In this document: positions 7,280 through 12,769 of the stretch, one piece after another
Position numbering within the stretch: position 1 is the stretch's first letter
How the letters are laid out: each line of letters begins with the position of its first letter
NCBI RefSeq assembly: GCF_009914755.1
Contig: NC_060947.1
From: the human T2T-CHM13v2.0 reference genome, Homo sapiens
Reading direction: 5' to 3' (one strand)
Length of the DNA stretch: 64,000 bases
Translations under genes and position numbers: made by a program
The notes under the pieces: model-generated
Seen by the model: only the letters and a program-made list of their open reading frames with translations
What the model was told of the DNA's origin: nothing
The model's database searches: none

Positions 7280-8299
7280 TCAAAAATGCATATCTTAAAA
7301 AGCTCTATGGCCCATAGGTATTACCTAGAAATCTATTCATGTTCACATTTCATATAATTTATTCATTCTCATATTTGTAGTCATATCTAGAAAAAAGAAT
7401 TTGACACCAGGTTAAGATCATGTCCCCAACTATATATGAAACGTTTTGTGGGAAAATCAGATTCCTCTTACATTTTTATCTAATGTACCTTATCATGAGC
7501 ATAACAGGTAACTGGGAAGACAGTCAGTATTGCTACTCTTATTTCCCATTCTGAACCACAGATTTAGATGGTCTTAAGGGGTTTAAGCAATGCTCTGGCC
7601 TTTTTACTCTCACTGTACAGATGAAAATCTGAGGACCATTGAGAAAGTTACATAACAAACTACAAAAAAAAAAAAAAATTGCACAACAAACTAGTGGCAT
7701 AGCCAGCAAAGAAACCCAGATGCCTATGTTCCTTCCATGTTTGCAGTATCATCAAATCTGGTAGAGATGCCTGTCATTAGGAAGTTAAATCCAGTAAAAT
7801 GTATTTACTTATAATTCTTTTTTTTTTTAATAATTCTTAACTCTTTCCAATGAGCTCATATATATAGCCCAACAGAAAATCTGCTCTTTCCATTCACACA
7901 GACCATCGATACTTGATACGACAGAATGGAAATCCACTAGAGCTTACACAATTTAGATTCTCTAACTCCAAAGCAAAAGAAGGCCTCAAGCAACATTATT
8001 TGATTATGAGATTTTGCTGCTGGGAAGAATTAATCAAATTCATCCTAGAGGCTCATCTGCTGCATGACATACTCATTCCTTGATACTGAAACTCCCTAAC
8101 AAATTTCAACACAAGATGTGATGGTGACTTCTTTTCCTAGTACTTTCTGATCTTCATCTGTTACCTTGACTAGCATTTGAAGGAATGAAAATAAGGAGGT
8201 TGCTTTATCCCTAGTATCACACAATCTTTTGTATTTATATTAAAGCTGGGAAGACAGAAAAGGTCTCACTTAAGGACACACTTTTCACTACTTACGAAT

Positions 8300-8712
8300 A
8301 CGAAATAAGTGAAGAAGACAAATACCACATGTTCTCATTCATATGTGAGAGCTACAAAAATGGATCTCATGAAGATAGAGAGTAGACTGGTAGTTATCAG
8401 AGGAAGAGTTTGGGGGAAGGGAAGATGAAGAGAGGTTGATTAATGGGTACAAATATACACTTAGAAGAATAAGACCTAGTGTTTGATACATCAGTAGAGT
8501 GACTATAGTTAACAATAATCTACTGTATATTTCAAAATACCTAGAAAAGAAGATTCCAAATGTTTCCAGCAAAAAAAAAGAGATAAATGTTTAACGTGAT
8601 GGATATCCCAATTACTGATTTGATCATTACACATTTTATGAATGTATCAAAATATTACAGGTATCCCAAAATATGTACATCTATTAATGTATCAATAAAA
8701 ATAATAAAAAAC
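8300..8712 (+). mobile_element. L1MA-type 3' end
   Basis: CACATGTTCTCATTCATATGTGAGAGC...GTATCAATAAAA; template for the mosaic at 9551-9975. Confidence 0.85.
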
Positions 8713-8773
8713 TAAAATTACTGAAGAGGTGAGAAAGTCTAATAACTGGTAAATCATAAATAAAATCACATTC

Positions 8774-8985
8774 TTCGAGACCAGCCTGGCCAACATAGCA
8801 AGACCCCGTCTCTACTAAAAATACAAAATTAGCTGGGTATGGTGGAGCACACCTGTAATCCCAGCTACTCAGGAGGCTAAGGCAGGATAATCACTTGAAC
8901 CCAGGAGGCAGAGGTTGCAGTGAGCCGAGATCATGCCATTGTACTCCAGCCTGGACAAAAAGGGCAAAACTCCATCTCAAAAAAT
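8774..8985 (+). mobile_element. 5'-truncated Alu
   Basis: Starts at TCGAGACCAGCC. Confidence 0.92.
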
Positions 8986-9193
8986 TTTAAAAGTGAGTAC
9001 TAGATTCTTCCACGTGGTAAACGGATATAAGAGATACTGGAAAGTGACAGTGAGGAAAATAATGTAAACCTAAATATCCTTTAGCTTACTTTTTTGGCAT
9101 TTCGCTCAAATTCAGGGAGTTCCCCTAGACCTCATTAGGCAGAACTTAGATTAATAAATTTGTCCAGCAAAAAATCCCTACTTTTAGAATAAG

Positions 9194-9491
9194 TTTTTTT
9201 TTTATTTTTTTGAGACAGAGTCTTGCTCTGTCACTCAGTCTGGAGTGCAGTGGCACGATCTCAGTCACTGTAGTCTCCACCTTTTGGGTTCAAGCGATTC
9301 TCCTGTCTTAGCCTCCTGAGTAGCTGGGATTACAGGTGCGCACCACCACACCCAGCTAATTTTGTATTTTTTGTAGAGACAGGGTTTTGCCATGTTGGCC
9401 AGGCTGGTCTTGAACTCCTGACCTCAAGTGATGCACCTGCCCCAGCCTCCCAAAGTGCTGGGATTACAGGTGTGAGCCATTGCGCCTGGCC
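9194..9491 (-). mobile_element. Alu (AluS)
   Basis: Reverse dimer. Confidence 0.95.
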
Positions 9492-10465
9492 TAGAATAGC
9501 TTATTTTTGTCTATTTGCCTTTTATAGTAGATGTGTCTAAACATAGTGAGATATTTTCATACATTCATGTGTAATGATCAAATCAGAGTAATTGGGATAT
9601 CCATCACCTTATTATAGGCATGCACCACCATACCCAGTTAATTTTTGTCTATTTGGCTTTTATAGTAGACGCATCTAAACACAGTGAGATGTATTTTTTC
9701 TAGTGATAAATCAAACTAGAATCCAAAACTACTAATAATATACTAAAGGTCACCTTAAACACTTATCTCTTTTTTTTGCTGGAAACATTTAGTAGAGACA
9801 AGATTTTGCCATGTTTGAACTCCTGGCCTCAAGCTGTCCGCCCGCCTCAGCTTCCCAAAGTGCTGGGATTATAGGTTGATTAATGGGTACAAACATACAC
9901 TTAGAAGAAATAAGACCTAGTGTTGGATAGATCAGTAGAGTGACTATAGTTAACAATAATCTACTGTATATTTCATTCTGCTGAATGAATAAATAAAATG
10001 AACCATACTCCTCTCCAGAATCAGAGACGGAAAAATCAATACAAATCATTTTTAAAAAGATAACTGTACAGTGTGTAAACCTAAGAAACACTACTTCAGA
10101 AAGGTGACCAAGTTAACATCATCAATGATAAGCCTGTTGACACTATGTACCGTGGATATATGATGAGAATGGCCCTTCACCTCCCTGGTCTTCCTCCCCA
10201 AAATCCACAACTCACATCTAATCATGAGAAAAACATCAGACAAATCCCAATTGAAGGACATTCTACAAAACACCTGACCAGTATTCCTCTAAACTGTCAG
10301 TCACCAAAAACAAGGAAAGTCTGAGAAACTGTCACAGCCAAGAAGAGTCCAAATAAATATGATGACTAAATATGATGTGGTGACCTAGATGGGATCCTGA
10401 AAAAGCAAAAGGACATTTGAGAAATACTAAGGAAATCTGAATGAAGTATGAACTTCAGTTAATTT

Positions 10466-10468
<3 letters not shown>

Positions 10469-10516
<48 letters not shown>

Positions 10517-10537
10517 TTTTTCCCTTTCTTGAGAAAG

Positions 10538-10574
<37 letters not shown>
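10469..10574. repeat. (AC)23 at 10469-10514 and a (TC)n tract at 10540-10574
   Basis: Directly visible. Confidence 0.98.
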
Positions 10575-10577
<3 letters not shown>

Positions 10578-10780
10578 CAGGCTGGAGTGCAGTGGCACAA
10601 TCTCGGCTCACTGCAACCCCAGCCTCTTGGGTTCAGCGATTTTCAAGTCTCAGCCTCCTGGGTAGTCCCAAGCATGCCACCACACCCGGCTAATTTTTTT
10701 GTAATTTTAGTAGAGACGGGGTTTCACCATGTTGGCCAGGCTATTCTCGAACTCCTGACCTCAAGGCCCAGTCAGCCTCC
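10575..10780 (-). mobile_element. Deleted/partial Alu
   Basis: Reverse Alu with internal deletions. Confidence 0.88.
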
Positions 10781-10867
10781 CAATAATAATAATATATTAA
10801 TATTGGCTTATTAATTATGGCAAATGTACCATTCTAATGTAAGATGTTAATAATAAGGGAAACTGAA

Positions 10868-11150
10868 CCAGGTGTGGTGGCTCACGCCTGAAATCCCAGC
10901 ACTTTGGAAGGCCGAGGTGGGCAGATGGCTTGAGCTCAGGAGTTCAAGACCAGCCTGGGCAAAATGGTGACATCACGTCTCTCCTAAAATACAAAAATTA
11001 GCTGGGCATGGTGGTGCATGCCTGTGGTCCCAGCTACTCGGGAGGCTGAGGTGGGAGAACTACTTGAAACGGGAGGCCAAGGTAGCAGTAAGCCGAGATT
11101 GGGCCACTGCACTCCAGCCTGAGAGAGAGTGAGACCCTGTCTCAAAATAA
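10868..11150 (+). mobile_element. Alu (AluJ-like)
   Basis: Dimer; TSD TAATAAGGGAAACTG. Confidence 0.94.
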
Positions 11151-11321
11151 TAAGGGAAACTGGGTATGGGGCATATACAGGTATCCCAAAATATGTACAT
11201 CTATTATGTATCAATAAAAAATAATAAAATATTGTTCACTATTTTTTCTAGTGATAACTCAAACTAGAATCCAAAACTACTAACAATATACTAAAGGTCA
11301 ACTTCAGTGAAAAGTGAATTG

Positions 11322-11646
<325 letters not shown>

Positions 11647-11702
11647 CTACTGGGACAGTCTTTCTGAGAAGTGCTTTAAGTGCATGTTAGAAGCCAGGGA
11701 CA

Positions 11703-11866
11703 TTTAGCCAGGCGTGGTGGCACGTGACTGTAGTCCCAGCTACTCAGGAGGCTGAGGTGGGAGGATCTCTTGAACGGGGAAGTCAAGGCTGCAGTGAGCT
11801 ATGATCATGCCACTGCACTCCAGCCTGGGCAACAGAGCAAAACCCTGTGTCAAAAAAAAAAAAAAA
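11703..11866 (+). mobile_element. Alu right monomer (J/FRAM-like)
   Basis: Right arm plus A tail. Confidence 0.9.
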
Positions 11867-12769
11867 GCAGCAGCAGCCAGGGATATGAATTAGGAGTGGG
11901 GTGGGTAGAGAGTGAGTGGGGCTGCTGGAGACAATGTTCCCATGGCACTGACCCTGGTTAACAGTCTTTGAGCAAGTACTATCACTTGCTGTAATTCCTT
12001 CTTCCTCATCCTTTGCTCCTTTTGAATATGATGATTTCTAGGAATGAACCTTCTTTATGACACATGCTGTATATTATTTGGTTTGAAGCAGGCTTGAATT
12101 TATGTCACTAAGGCAATGTTCTTTTTCAAAGCTCTCGGTTAGTTCTTAAGATATCAGAACCTGCAAAAAGCACGTGTAGGGCTGTTATTATCCCTTCAGA
12201 TCAATAGCTCAGTCACTACTATGAGGTATTAAGAAAGGAATTAGGAAGACAAGCAAATCTTTAGGGCTGCATCTATTCTAGCAAAAGAAGCACAGTAGTG
12301 AAGCACAAACATATTTTAATAAAAACCATTTTAGCAAGTGAGTTCTTACCAAGCAAAGAAATCCTGGGCTACTCTACCCAAATGTTTTCATAAAGGTTTT
12401 AGCTATGAGGCAATCAGATTCCAGGAGCTACAGGCAAACAGAGAAGGCTTGGAGGCTGGGGGATGAGTAGACGTGGGGATGAGTAGATGTGGGCAACAGG
12501 TGGACACAGGAGCATTTACACAAATACGTTAGGTTCCAACTAAGTGCTCCAGAATATTCACTAAAATATTCATTTTAATGTCAAATCCCTTCACAATTTA
12601 AATCAATATTTGAAACATGTCAACTGCATACACCTGTCTCCTAATAAAGTAAAACTTAAAAGGAAATACTGAAAAACAATGGAGAAGGTCTCACTCAGCA
12701 AGAAATGATATTCTTTAGAATCTCCTACTTAAATAACAATCTCTTCTGCTACTCTTAGTGACTTGTTTC

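What the first reader, a model, noticed from the sequence alone, without database searches (positions are those of the whole stretch)
9551..9975. Seven-segment mosaic copied from local templates in both orientations: a fossil of multi-step template switching
Seen in sequence: these 425 bp are almost entirely copies of sequence within ~2 kb. 9551-9611 is inverted 8592-8655 (L1). 9611-9648 is inverted 11435-11472 (Alu). 9641-9690 is direct 9503-9552 (45/50). 9692-9752 is direct 11240-11300 (59/61). 9750-9790 is inverted 8558-8599, resuming the first L1 template with an overlap (TCACCTTA). 9788-9875 is inverted 11343-11431 and shares that Alu's private GGACAGCTTGAGG variant and missing GACCAGCCTGGCC. 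9873-9975 is direct 8433-8534. Most joins show microhomology (ATTTTTGT, TCA, TTT, AGG). Established: serial microhomology-mediated switching is the signature of FoSTeS/MMBIR or Pol-theta-mediated repair. Inference: one germline repair event with at least 6 switches, postdating the Alu at 11322. A few to ~13% divergence per segment suggests it is old and fixed. A repeat annotator would report only unrelated L1/Alu scraps.
Basis: partly seen in the sequence, partly recalled or inferred. Interest (0 to 1): 0.82.

Follow-up and report, generated by a model that had tools for sequence, protein, structure and literature searches.

The report
Old patchwork insertion copied from neighbours
A 425-base stretch in an intron of human ATP11C is a patchwork of short copies of nearby L1, Alu and unique DNA in both orientations, most likely the old scar of one error-prone DNA repair event of a known kind, with no sign of any function.

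Summary
In detail: all seven claimed alignments are at the stated coordinates.

Five pieces (C, D, A', B', E) are individually traceable to the local sources. C and D have no other match in the 3.1-Gb genome. B' shares a 26-mer found only twice genome-wide.

Two short pieces are not diagnostic by identity. A rests on collinearity with A'; B rests on collinearity with B' and a rare shared variant pair.

I found an eighth piece: 11176-11229 copies the L1 tail 8656-8710, starting exactly where A's template ends.

In source coordinates the pieces tile their templates almost without overlap, which random re-entry rarely gives. Non-CpG divergence is uniform at 3.5%. Both fit one concerted event that is old and later than the Alu at 11322.

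Three of six internal joins have 4-8 nt of overlap (P≈0.007-0.015).

Best reading: iterative template-switch repair (MMBIR/FoSTeS-like). Rejoining of broken fragments is not excluded.

This is a known kind of event; non-overlapping templates interspersed with other loci were described experimentally in 2026. Primate orthologues could not be examined.

The parts
9551..9611 (-). Piece A: inverted copy of L1 8592-8655
   Evidence: 57 matches, 2 mismatches, 2 indels. Not diagnostic alone. Assigned because it overlaps A' by 8 nt in L1 coordinates and abuts F's template at 8655|8656.
9611..9648 (-). Piece B: inverted copy of Alu 11435-11472
   Evidence: 33 of 38, with 4 of the 5 mismatches CpG-type. 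Identity is ambiguous. B and the 11322 Alu are the only 2 of 26 comparable window sites with the joint variant pattern, which has 310 sites genome-wide. B ends 3 nt from where B' begins in Alu coordinates.
9641..9690 (+). Piece C: direct copy of the 50 nt just left of the insertion point (9503-9552)
   Evidence: 45 of 50, with 3 mismatches CpG-type. It is the only other match in the genome.
9692..9752 (+). Piece D: direct copy of 11240-11300
   Evidence: 59 of 61. It is the only other match in the genome.
9750..9790 (-). Piece A': inverted copy of L1 8558-8599
   Evidence: 39 matches, 2 mismatches, 1 gap. Four derived states are shared with the local L1, including its A-run block.
9788..9875 (-). 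Piece B': inverted copy of Alu 11343-11431
   Evidence: 82 matches, 6 mismatches, 1 gap. Score 74 against 49 or less for 43 other Alus. The 26-mer is exact only twice in the genome. Eight derived states are shared.
9873..9975 (+). Piece E: direct copy of L1 8433-8534
   Evidence: 99 matches, 3 mismatches, 1 gap. The local source is the best of 40 scored genomic copies: 96% against 92% or less.
11176..11229 (+). Piece F (new): direct copy of the L1 tail 8656-8710, inserted inside an older repeat, 10 nt upstream of D's template
   Evidence: D20: 31 of 31 identical. alignment. The 31-mer is exact at only these 2 genomic sites, with none at 1-2 mismatches. The old repeat is collinear up to 11175 in L012, L013, L014 and L016.
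8433..8710 (+). Template block I: 3' end of an L1, source of E, A', A and F. Only 8535-8557 is unused.
   Evidence: It is contiguous with the L1 family alignment through 8655|8656.
9503..9552 (+). Template of C. It is also the left flank, ending at the insertion point.
11240..11472 (+). Template block II: unique or old-repeat sequence (D's template) plus the first 150 nt of the Alu at 11322 (templates of B' and B)
   Evidence: The Alu's target-site duplication is at 11310-11321 and 11614-11625.
8774..9414 (.). Context: an inverted Alu pair (arms 8774-8923 and 9265-9414, 88% complementary, 341-nt spacer) about 140 nt left of the insertion point. It is a possible trigger only.
   Evidence: pair I2. 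No test of a causal role was possible.

Best explanation
One ancient germline repair or replication accident produced the patchwork. A DNA end near 9552 (and probably a second lesion near 11175-11230) was extended by a poorly processive polymerase. That polymerase repeatedly let go and re-primed on nearby single-stranded DNA of either strand within about 1.9 kb.

It copied 38-103 nt each time from three places: the L1 3' end (8433-8710), the break's own left flank (9503-9552), and the block 11240-11472.

This is iterative template switching of the MMBIR/FoSTeS type, a sub-kilobase version of chromoanasynthesis. The product is a 424-bp insertion of seven pieces plus a 54-bp eighth piece 1.2 kb away. 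The element is a mutational scar in an ATP11C intron and has no apparent function.

Shown: local templated origin, the order relative to the Alu, a common age, and non-random tiling of templates.

Inferred: that the process was replicative, the polymerases involved, and the initiating lesion.

A refinement I consider plausible but unproven is that both ends of one break were extended. The left end made A then B. The right end made E, B', A', D and C. The two new strands finally annealed at the longest overlap, the 8-nt B|C join. That would explain why synthesis on the L1 and on the Alu runs towards itself from two sides and meets.
For: 1. Local templates.
- C and D have only their local partner in 3.1 Gb.
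- B' and F carry 26- and 31-mers that are exact only at copy and source.
- In all, 22 derived states are shared between copies and sources.

2. Sources are the originals.
- The Alu has its own target-site duplication.
- The L1 is contiguous with its family alignment.
- The copies are internal fragments.

3. One event.
- Non-CpG divergence is 16 of 459 (3.5%) and homogeneous (P=0.90 for 8 pieces, 0.99 for 7).
- Pieces tile the templates: L1 is E, a 23-nt gap, A', an 8-nt overlap, A, 0 nt, F. The right block is D, a 42-nt gap, B', a 3-nt gap, B. For the L1 pieces P=2e-4 to 6e-3, and for the right block P=6e-3 to 3e-2, whatever template length is assumed.
- The order A B..A' B' is interleaved and cannot arise from nested insertions.
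- C's template ends at the insertion point 9552. D's template starts 10 nt from F's insertion site.

4. Priming by microhomology.
- Overlaps are 8 nt (B|C), 7 nt with one mismatch or 3 exact (D|A'), and 4 nt (B'|E). The null mean is 0.92, P=0.007 for the mean and 0.015 for three or more joins of 3 nt or more.
- A'|B' becomes 3 nt once a source-side later change is polarised.
- The 8-nt A/A' overlap is the D|A' overlap itself, so new synthesis on the L1 resumes where A stopped.

5. Precedent. Experimentally induced complex insertions have pieces of 21-245 bp (median 77) and about 52% of joins with microhomology. They also show non-overlapping pieces from one locus interspersed with pieces from other loci. 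The authors attribute these to Pol theta- and Pol delta-dependent MM-BIR (PMC13065848, passages read).
Against: - No pre-event allele was seen, so 'one event' rests on internal consistency only.
- With CpG-type changes included, divergence is heterogeneous (P=0.02 for 8 pieces, 0.07 for 7). I attribute this to CpG-rich B and C, but it is also what different ages could give.
- Three of six internal joins have 0-1 nt of overlap by the automatic rule, and C|D carries one unassigned base. That fits end joining as well.
- Using each template base only once is what cutting up a single extra copy would give. The 2026 paper treats overlapping, not non-overlapping, insertions as the clearest sign of replication.
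- A and B are not individually attributable.
- F has 0 substitutions in 53 aligned nt against about 2-3 expected, so it could be younger.
- F ends in the L1's A-rich tail, as a retrotransposed copy would.
- No structure-prone sequence was found at the shared L1 breakpoint (z=0.28 and 0.45).
Confidence: 0.6

Rival explanations
1. Break-and-join shuffle. An extra copy of the region (for example a broken sister chromatid or over-replicated DNA) was fragmented at about a dozen points. The fragments were ligated in random order and orientation into two breaks of the surviving chromatid (9552|9976 and 11175|11230) by end joining or microhomology-mediated end joining. This would be a miniature chromothripsis-like event with copy gain.
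For: - Each template base appears at most once, apart from 8 nt.
- Fragment ends abut (8655|8656) or nearly abut (11431/11435).
- C ends at the recipient break. D starts 10 nt from the second recipient break.
- Three joins are blunt or nearly blunt, and one has a stray base.
Against: - A and A' both contain 8592-8599, which one blunt cut cannot give.
- Overlaps of 8 and 7 nt are long for classical end joining.
- The sources are intact, so a separate donor copy has to be postulated.
Confidence: 0.17
2. Several separate events. Independent small duplications, inversions and insertions accumulated at a fragile spot over time, and F is an unrelated event.
For: - Heterogeneous divergence when CpG-type changes are counted (P=0.02).
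- F shows 0 of 53 substitutions.
- F lies 1.2 kb from the mosaic.
- An inverted Alu pair nearby could make the site recurrently fragile.
Against: - Non-CpG divergence is uniform (P=0.90-0.99).
- The interleaved order A B..A' B' cannot be produced by nested insertions.
- A tandem-duplication-plus-deletions route needs at least 4 deletions with complementary edges.
- The tiling of templates is improbable for independent events.
Confidence: 0.12
3. Reverse-transcriptase origin. L1 reverse transcriptase jumped between local RNAs (ATP11C pre-mRNA and antisense transcripts) and made a chimeric cDNA. F would be a 5'-truncated retrocopy of the local L1.
For: - F comprises the last 54 nt of the L1, including its A-rich tail.
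- L1 and Alu sequences are involved.
Against: - The mosaic pieces are internal fragments without poly-A.
- Three pieces are direct and four inverted, so RNAs of both senses would be needed.
- No target-site duplication flanks F or the mosaic.
- F starts exactly where A's template ends, which retrotransposition does not explain.
Confidence: 0.04
4. Unrelated L1 and Alu scraps whose likeness to neighbours is chance or later gene conversion.
For: By identity alone, A and B are as close to distant family members as to the local sources.
Against: - C and D are not repeats and match only locally.
- The 26-mer and the 31-mer are exact only at copy and source.
- Internal L1 fragments cannot arise by ordinary retrotransposition.
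Confidence: 0.02

Closest known systems
Experimentally induced chromoanasynthesis-like complex insertions by mitotic MM-BIR (Nat Commun 2026, PMC13065848; passages read)
   Same: - Many short templated pieces (21-245 bp, median 77, in their most complex molecule).
- About half of the joins have microhomology.
- Both orientations occur.
- 'Non-overlapping or minimally overlapping' pieces from one locus are interspersed with pieces from other loci.
- Sequential pieces of opposite orientation occur at one boundary.
   Different: - Theirs are somatic, at dysfunctional telomeres or nuclease breaks, with templates from many chromosomes.
- This one is germline and ancient, all templates lie within 1.9 kb, and it is split over two insertion sites.
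- No inverted repeat or structure was found at the shared boundary here.
FoSTeS/MMBIR iterative template switching at pathogenic copy-number breakpoints, e.g. PLP1 (PMC6902434; passages read)
   Same: - Serial switches.
- Microhomology of 2-9 bp, and imperfect 'microhomeology' of 7-14 bp at 70-90% identity. The TCACCTT join here has one mismatch.
- Both direct and inverted pieces.
   Different: Those events move kilobases to megabases and are recent and disease-causing. Here the pieces are 38-103 nt, the whole scar is under 0.5 kb, and it is neutral and old.
Short-range template switches, four-point model, in great apes (PMC7954356; passages read)
   Same: An evolutionary, small-scale, local switch to a nearby template that leaves inverted copies.
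   Different: That model describes one switch and one return, with a median copied length of 12 nt. Here there are 8 joins in the mosaic (10 with F), longer pieces, and templates up to 1.9 kb away. A four-point scan would not describe this event.
MMB-TI templated insertions (PMC8421209; passages read)
   Same: - Inverted templated insertions flanked by microhomology (2-12 bp, average 3.7).
- Present as germline variants in normal cells.
   Different: Their detection signature requires the template within 100 bp and reads one inverted piece. Only C here has its template within 100 bp (its template ends 89 nt before C starts), and C is a direct copy.
SD-MMEJ / polymerase-theta end joining with multiple rounds of synthesis (PMC2943611; passages read)
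   Same: [quoted passage not shown]
- These cycles create new microhomology for the final join. This is the logic of my two-ended refinement, with the flank copy C and the 8-nt final overlap.
   Different: The insertions described there are far shorter and are templated right beside the break. From recall, polymerase-theta inserts are usually under about 30 nt.

Membership tests
Replicative template-switch rearrangement (MMBIR/FoSTeS, chromoanasynthesis-like) | Inserted pieces are copies of other genomic sequence, and the sources are retained (copy gain) | tested here: met
   The sources are intact and contiguous.
Replicative template-switch rearrangement (MMBIR/FoSTeS, chromoanasynthesis-like) | Microhomology or microhomeology at the joins beyond chance | tested here: met
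   overlaps of 8, 7 (one mismatch) and 4 nt at 3 of 6 joins, P=0.007-0.015. The other three joins have 0-1 nt by the automatic rule, and one of them rises to 3 nt after polarisation.
Replicative template-switch rearrangement (MMBIR/FoSTeS, chromoanasynthesis-like) | All joins formed in a single event | tested here: inconclusive
   Uniform non-CpG divergence, tiling and the interleaved order all fit one event. No pre-event allele or orthologue was available.
Replicative template-switch rearrangement (MMBIR/FoSTeS, chromoanasynthesis-like) | Synthesis rather than ligation of fragments (for example the same template copied more than once) | tested here: inconclusive
   Only 8 nt (8592-8599) are copied twice. 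Otherwise each base is used once.
Short-range template switch (four-point model) | One departure and one return on a local template | tested here: not met
   There are 8 joins and 7 pieces, plus F. The model is as described.
Polymerase-theta templated insertion / SD-MMEJ | Short inserts templated from sequence immediately flanking the break | tested here: not met
   Only C is templated from the flank. The other templates lie 0.9-1.9 kb away and the pieces are 38-103 nt. The size norm is partly recalled.
L1-mediated retrotransposition, twin priming or chimeric retrocopy | 3' end with poly-A, a target-site duplication, and a single RNA sense | tested here: not met
   The mosaic pieces are internal and of mixed orientation, and no duplication flanks them. 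F has the A-rich tail but no duplication.
Chromothripsis-type breakage and rejoining | Conservation of material with loss rather than gain, and random order and orientation | tested here: inconclusive
   Order and orientation look random and material is used once. But the sources persist, so there is a gain, and two joins have 7-8 nt of overlap.

The most novel reading that the evidence does not exclude
The tiling is a physical record. Two stretches of about 250 bp were used once each in units of 40-100 nt, and the unit ends coincide with one another and with the two insertion sites:
- 8655|8656 is shared by A and F.
- C ends at the left break.
- D starts 10 nt from the second break.

That would make this a datable germline example of the 'non-overlapping hotspot' behaviour so far seen only in cultured cells. 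It would imply that template-switch repair consumes, or is bounded by, discrete stretches of single-stranded DNA (gap-sized or nascent-fragment-sized) and can seed two insertion sites 1.2 kb apart in one event.
Probability: 0.25. Interest if true: 0.6.

Novelty: new member of a known kind. Interest (0 to 1): 0.38.

Why it matters
It has no functional consequence that I can see, because it lies deep in an intron of ATP11C. Its value is as a clean natural specimen.

It is a fixed-looking, sub-kilobase, eight-piece product of multi-step templated repair whose templates all survive next door. Junctions, order, orientation and template usage can therefore all be read directly.

Current evolutionary scans model a single switch-and-return, and repeat annotation would label this as unrelated L1 and Alu scraps. 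Events like this are therefore probably under-counted.

The once-only, abutting use of templates matches a feature recently reported in experimental chromoanasynthesis. A genome-wide search for such mosaics could test whether that feature is general in the germline.

Tried and rejected
- **Rfam scan of 8000-12000:** no family.
- **Empty-site reconstruction from repeat families:** failed. The left flank 9492-9552 and the right flank 9976-10056 are unique in the genome. The old repeat to the right only begins near 10054.
- **Exact-match microhomology script:** it gave zero everywhere, because later substitutions sit beside the joins. I replaced it with an X-drop rule applied equally to the null. 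That rule still mis-scores A|B, because two CpG doublets stop the extension. By reading, the overlap there is 1 nt.
- **Structure at the shared L1 breakpoint 8655|8656:** none (z=0.28 and 0.45; only two short inverted repeats, neither spanning the breakpoint).
- **Simple inversion of 9551-11175:** this would join A to F into one L1 piece, but it would invert the old repeat that is collinear today.
- **Nested insertions:** the A B..A' B' order is crossing, not nested.
- **Tandem duplication of a simpler precursor plus deletions:** it needs at least 4 deletions with complementary edges.
- **Copying errors as the sole source of mismatches:** rejected, because 7 changes are on the source side.
- **Continuation of the old repeat after F:** only weak support (z about 2.2-2.3 in 2 of 6 copies).
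- **No protein, structure or complex tools were relevant.**

Full report
**Observation**

I read 8200-11800 and ran a repeat search on 8000-12000. I then aligned each claimed segment to its claimed source.

| Piece | Mosaic coordinates | Source | Result |
|---|---|---|---|
| A | 9551-9611 | inverted 8592-8655 | 57 matches, 2 mismatches, 2 indels |
| B | 9611-9648 | inverted 11435-11472 | 33 of 38 |
| C | 9641-9690 | direct 9503-9552 | 45 of 50 |
| D | 9692-9752 | direct 11240-11300 | 59 of 61 |
| A' | 9750-9790 | inverted 8558-8599 | 39 matches, 2 mismatches, 1 gap |
| B' | 9788-9875 | inverted 11343-11431 | 82 matches, 6 mismatches, 1 gap |
| E | 9873-9975 | direct 8433-8534 | 99 matches, 3 mismatches, 1 gap |

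A BLAST of 9450-10050 against the whole 64-kb window recovers the same partners.

**Are the local sequences really the sources?**

The window's own genome (3.1 Gb) could be searched.

- **C's template (9492-9552):** 2 matches in the genome, itself and C.
- **D:** 2 matches, itself and 11240-11300.
- **B':** I compared it with the 44 window Alus that cover this part. It scores 74 against the Alu at 11322, and the next best score is 49.
  - The 26-mer across the variant is exact at 2 genomic sites, both here. A further 67 sites have one mismatch.
  - B' shares 8 derived states with that Alu.
- **E:** 96% identical to the local L1. The best distant copies reach 92% and 90%, with 40 scored of 5577 candidates.
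- **A':** it shares the local L1's private A-run block, 4 derived states in all.

Two pieces are weaker.

- **A:** the local L1 (77 bits, 86% with gaps) is beaten or equalled by distant copies (78.8, 78.8, 77.9 and 77.9 bits; 40 scored of 1176 candidates).
  - A lacks the source's 2-nt deletion and one source substitution.
  - That substitution is also absent from A', and it is polarised as a later change in the source. The discrepancy therefore fits copying before those changes.
- **B:** 5 of 43 other window Alus score as high or higher.
  - However, 4 of its 5 mismatches are CpG-type.
  - B and the 11322 Alu are the only 2 of 26 comparable window sites with a joint pair of variants. That pair occurs at 310 sites genome-wide. 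From recall, the genome holds roughly a million Alus.

For the L1 outgroup I used 5 of the 8 distant copies fetched (L004, L005, L006, L008, L009). I dropped L003, L007 and L010 because their matches to the source were split or partial.

**An eighth piece**

Piece F, 11176-11229, is a direct copy of the L1 tail 8656-8710.

- 31 of 31 bases are identical at the start (D20).
- It shares the derived states that distinguish the local L1 from other copies.
- The 31-mer is exact at only these two genomic sites. No site has 1-2 mismatches, and 6 sites have 3.
- F sits inside an older repeat that is collinear up to 11175 in L012, L013, L014 and L016. There is no target-site duplication.
- Continuation of the old repeat after F is only weakly supported.
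- F's template begins at 8656, the base after A's template ends (8655). F also lies 10 nt upstream of D's template.

**Tiling**

In source coordinates the pieces cover their templates almost exactly once.

- **L1:** E 8433-8534, then 23 nt unused, A' 8558-8599, an 8-nt overlap, A 8592-8655, no gap, F 8656-8710.
- **Right block:** D 11240-11300, then 42 nt unused, B' 11343-11431, a 3-nt gap, B 11435-11472.

I placed pieces of these lengths at random on templates of 278 to 4000 nt.

- Four L1 pieces: 8 nt or less of total overlap together with two or more abutting pairs occurs with P=6e-4, 6e-3, 3e-3 and 2e-4.
- Right block: P=9e-3, 3e-2, 2e-2 and 6e-3.
- Without F the L1 signal is weak (P=0.02-0.08).

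Further points:

- The 8-nt A/A' overlap is the same sequence as the D|A' junction overlap. New synthesis on the L1 therefore resumes where A stopped.
- C's template ends at the left insertion point.
- In the mosaic, the two L1 pieces and the two Alu pieces are interleaved (A, B, ..., A', B'). Nested insertions cannot give this order.

**Joins**

I used a mismatch-tolerant rule applied equally to 200,000 random local joins.

| Join | Overlap |
|---|---|
| B\|C | 8 nt (ATTTTTGT) |
| D\|A' | 7 nt with one mismatch (TCACCTT), 3 nt exact |
| B'\|E | 4 nt (AGGT) |
| A\|B | scored 0 by the rule, 1 nt by reading |
| C\|D | 0, with one unassigned G at 9691 |
| A'\|B' | scored 0, but 3 nt (TTT) once the source's change there is polarised as later |

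The null mean is 0.92. P=0.007 for the observed mean, and P=0.015 for three or more joins of 3 nt or more. The two outer joins cannot be assessed without the pre-event allele.

**Age and direction**

- Copy-source substitutions are 24 of 459 (5.2%). Non-CpG substitutions are 16 of 459 (3.5%).
- Non-CpG divergence is homogeneous (P=0.90 for eight pieces, 0.99 for seven).
- With CpG-type changes included it is not homogeneous (P=0.02 and 0.07). The excess lies in B and C.
- Polarisation with outgroups gives 22 shared derived states, 7 source-derived, 12 copy-derived, 1 where both differ, and 5 unpolarised. This does not differ from 1:1 (P=0.36).
- Some A and F columns in that count are indels rendered as mismatches by the fragment alignment.
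- Source-side changes show that real time has passed. The mismatches are not just error-prone copying.
- From recalled primate rates, this level of divergence suggests tens of millions of years.
- The Alu at 11322 has its own 12-nt target-site duplication, so it is the original and predates the event.

**Mechanism**

The best-supported reading is one concerted, templated event of the MMBIR/FoSTeS kind. A two-ended version fits the details:

- The left end is extended by A then B.
- The right end is extended by E, B', A', D and then a copy of the left flank (C).
- The final annealing happens at the longest overlap, B|C.

This version explains the convergent, abutting use of the L1 and the Alu, and why C stops at the break. 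It is inference.

The main rival is ligation of fragments of an extra copy. That would also give once-only use of templates and some blunt joins. It does not easily give the doubly copied 8 nt or the 7-8-nt overlaps.

Separate events, reverse-transcriptase jumping and chance are less likely, for the reasons given under rival explanations.

An inverted Alu pair lies about 140 nt left of the insertion point (88% complementary over 150 nt, 341-nt spacer). It is a possible trigger but is untested.

**Comparison with what is known**

For all of the following I read passages only, not whole papers.

- **Short-range template switches in apes:** modelled as one switch and one return, with a median of 12 nt copied (PMC7954356).
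- **MMB-TI detection:** requires inverted templates within 100 bp and finds junction microhomology of 2-12 bp (PMC8421209).
- **PLP1 rearrangements:** show iterative switches with microhomology of 2-9 bp and imperfect matches of 7-14 bp (PMC6902434).
- **A 2026 study of induced complex insertions:** reports pieces of 21-245 bp and about 52% of joins with microhomology. It also reports non-overlapping pieces from one locus interspersed with other loci, and opposite-orientation pieces at one boundary. It attributes these to Pol theta- and Pol delta-dependent MM-BIR (PMC13065848).

The present scar is therefore a germline, ancient and local member of a known kind. My four literature searches listed no description of this locus, but none of them was aimed at it.

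**Limits**

- No primate orthologues, no human population data and no repeat-family library were available.
- Genome searches score only the best 40 candidates, so 'best match' statements for A and E are relative to those.
- Supplements of the cited papers were not opened.

Noticed in passing
window 8774-8923 and 9265-9414: Two Alus in opposite orientation form a 150-nt inverted repeat, 88% complementary, with a 341-nt spacer. The left one starts mid-element. The pair ends about 140 nt before the mosaic's insertion point.
   Followed up: partly
window 11146-11206: The present-day junction of the old repeat with piece F folds into a modest hairpin as single-stranded DNA (-6.2 kcal/mol, z=-2.04, 6 of 200 shuffles as good). 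It may be chance.
   Followed up: partly
window 10470-10575: A long (CA)n run followed by a (CT)n run directly abuts an inverted Alu, inside the old repeat between the mosaic and F.
   Followed up: no
window 10054-11175: An old interspersed repeat, about 68-76% identical to 13 other genomic copies, starts abruptly at about 10054 in every comparison. It carries two later Alu insertions. One of them (about 10868-11150) has a target-site duplication readable.
   Followed up: partly
window 8651-8656: The shared A/F template boundary falls in a 6-nt palindrome (AATATT). A primer ending in AT could anneal there on either strand. No larger structure was found.
   Followed up: yes
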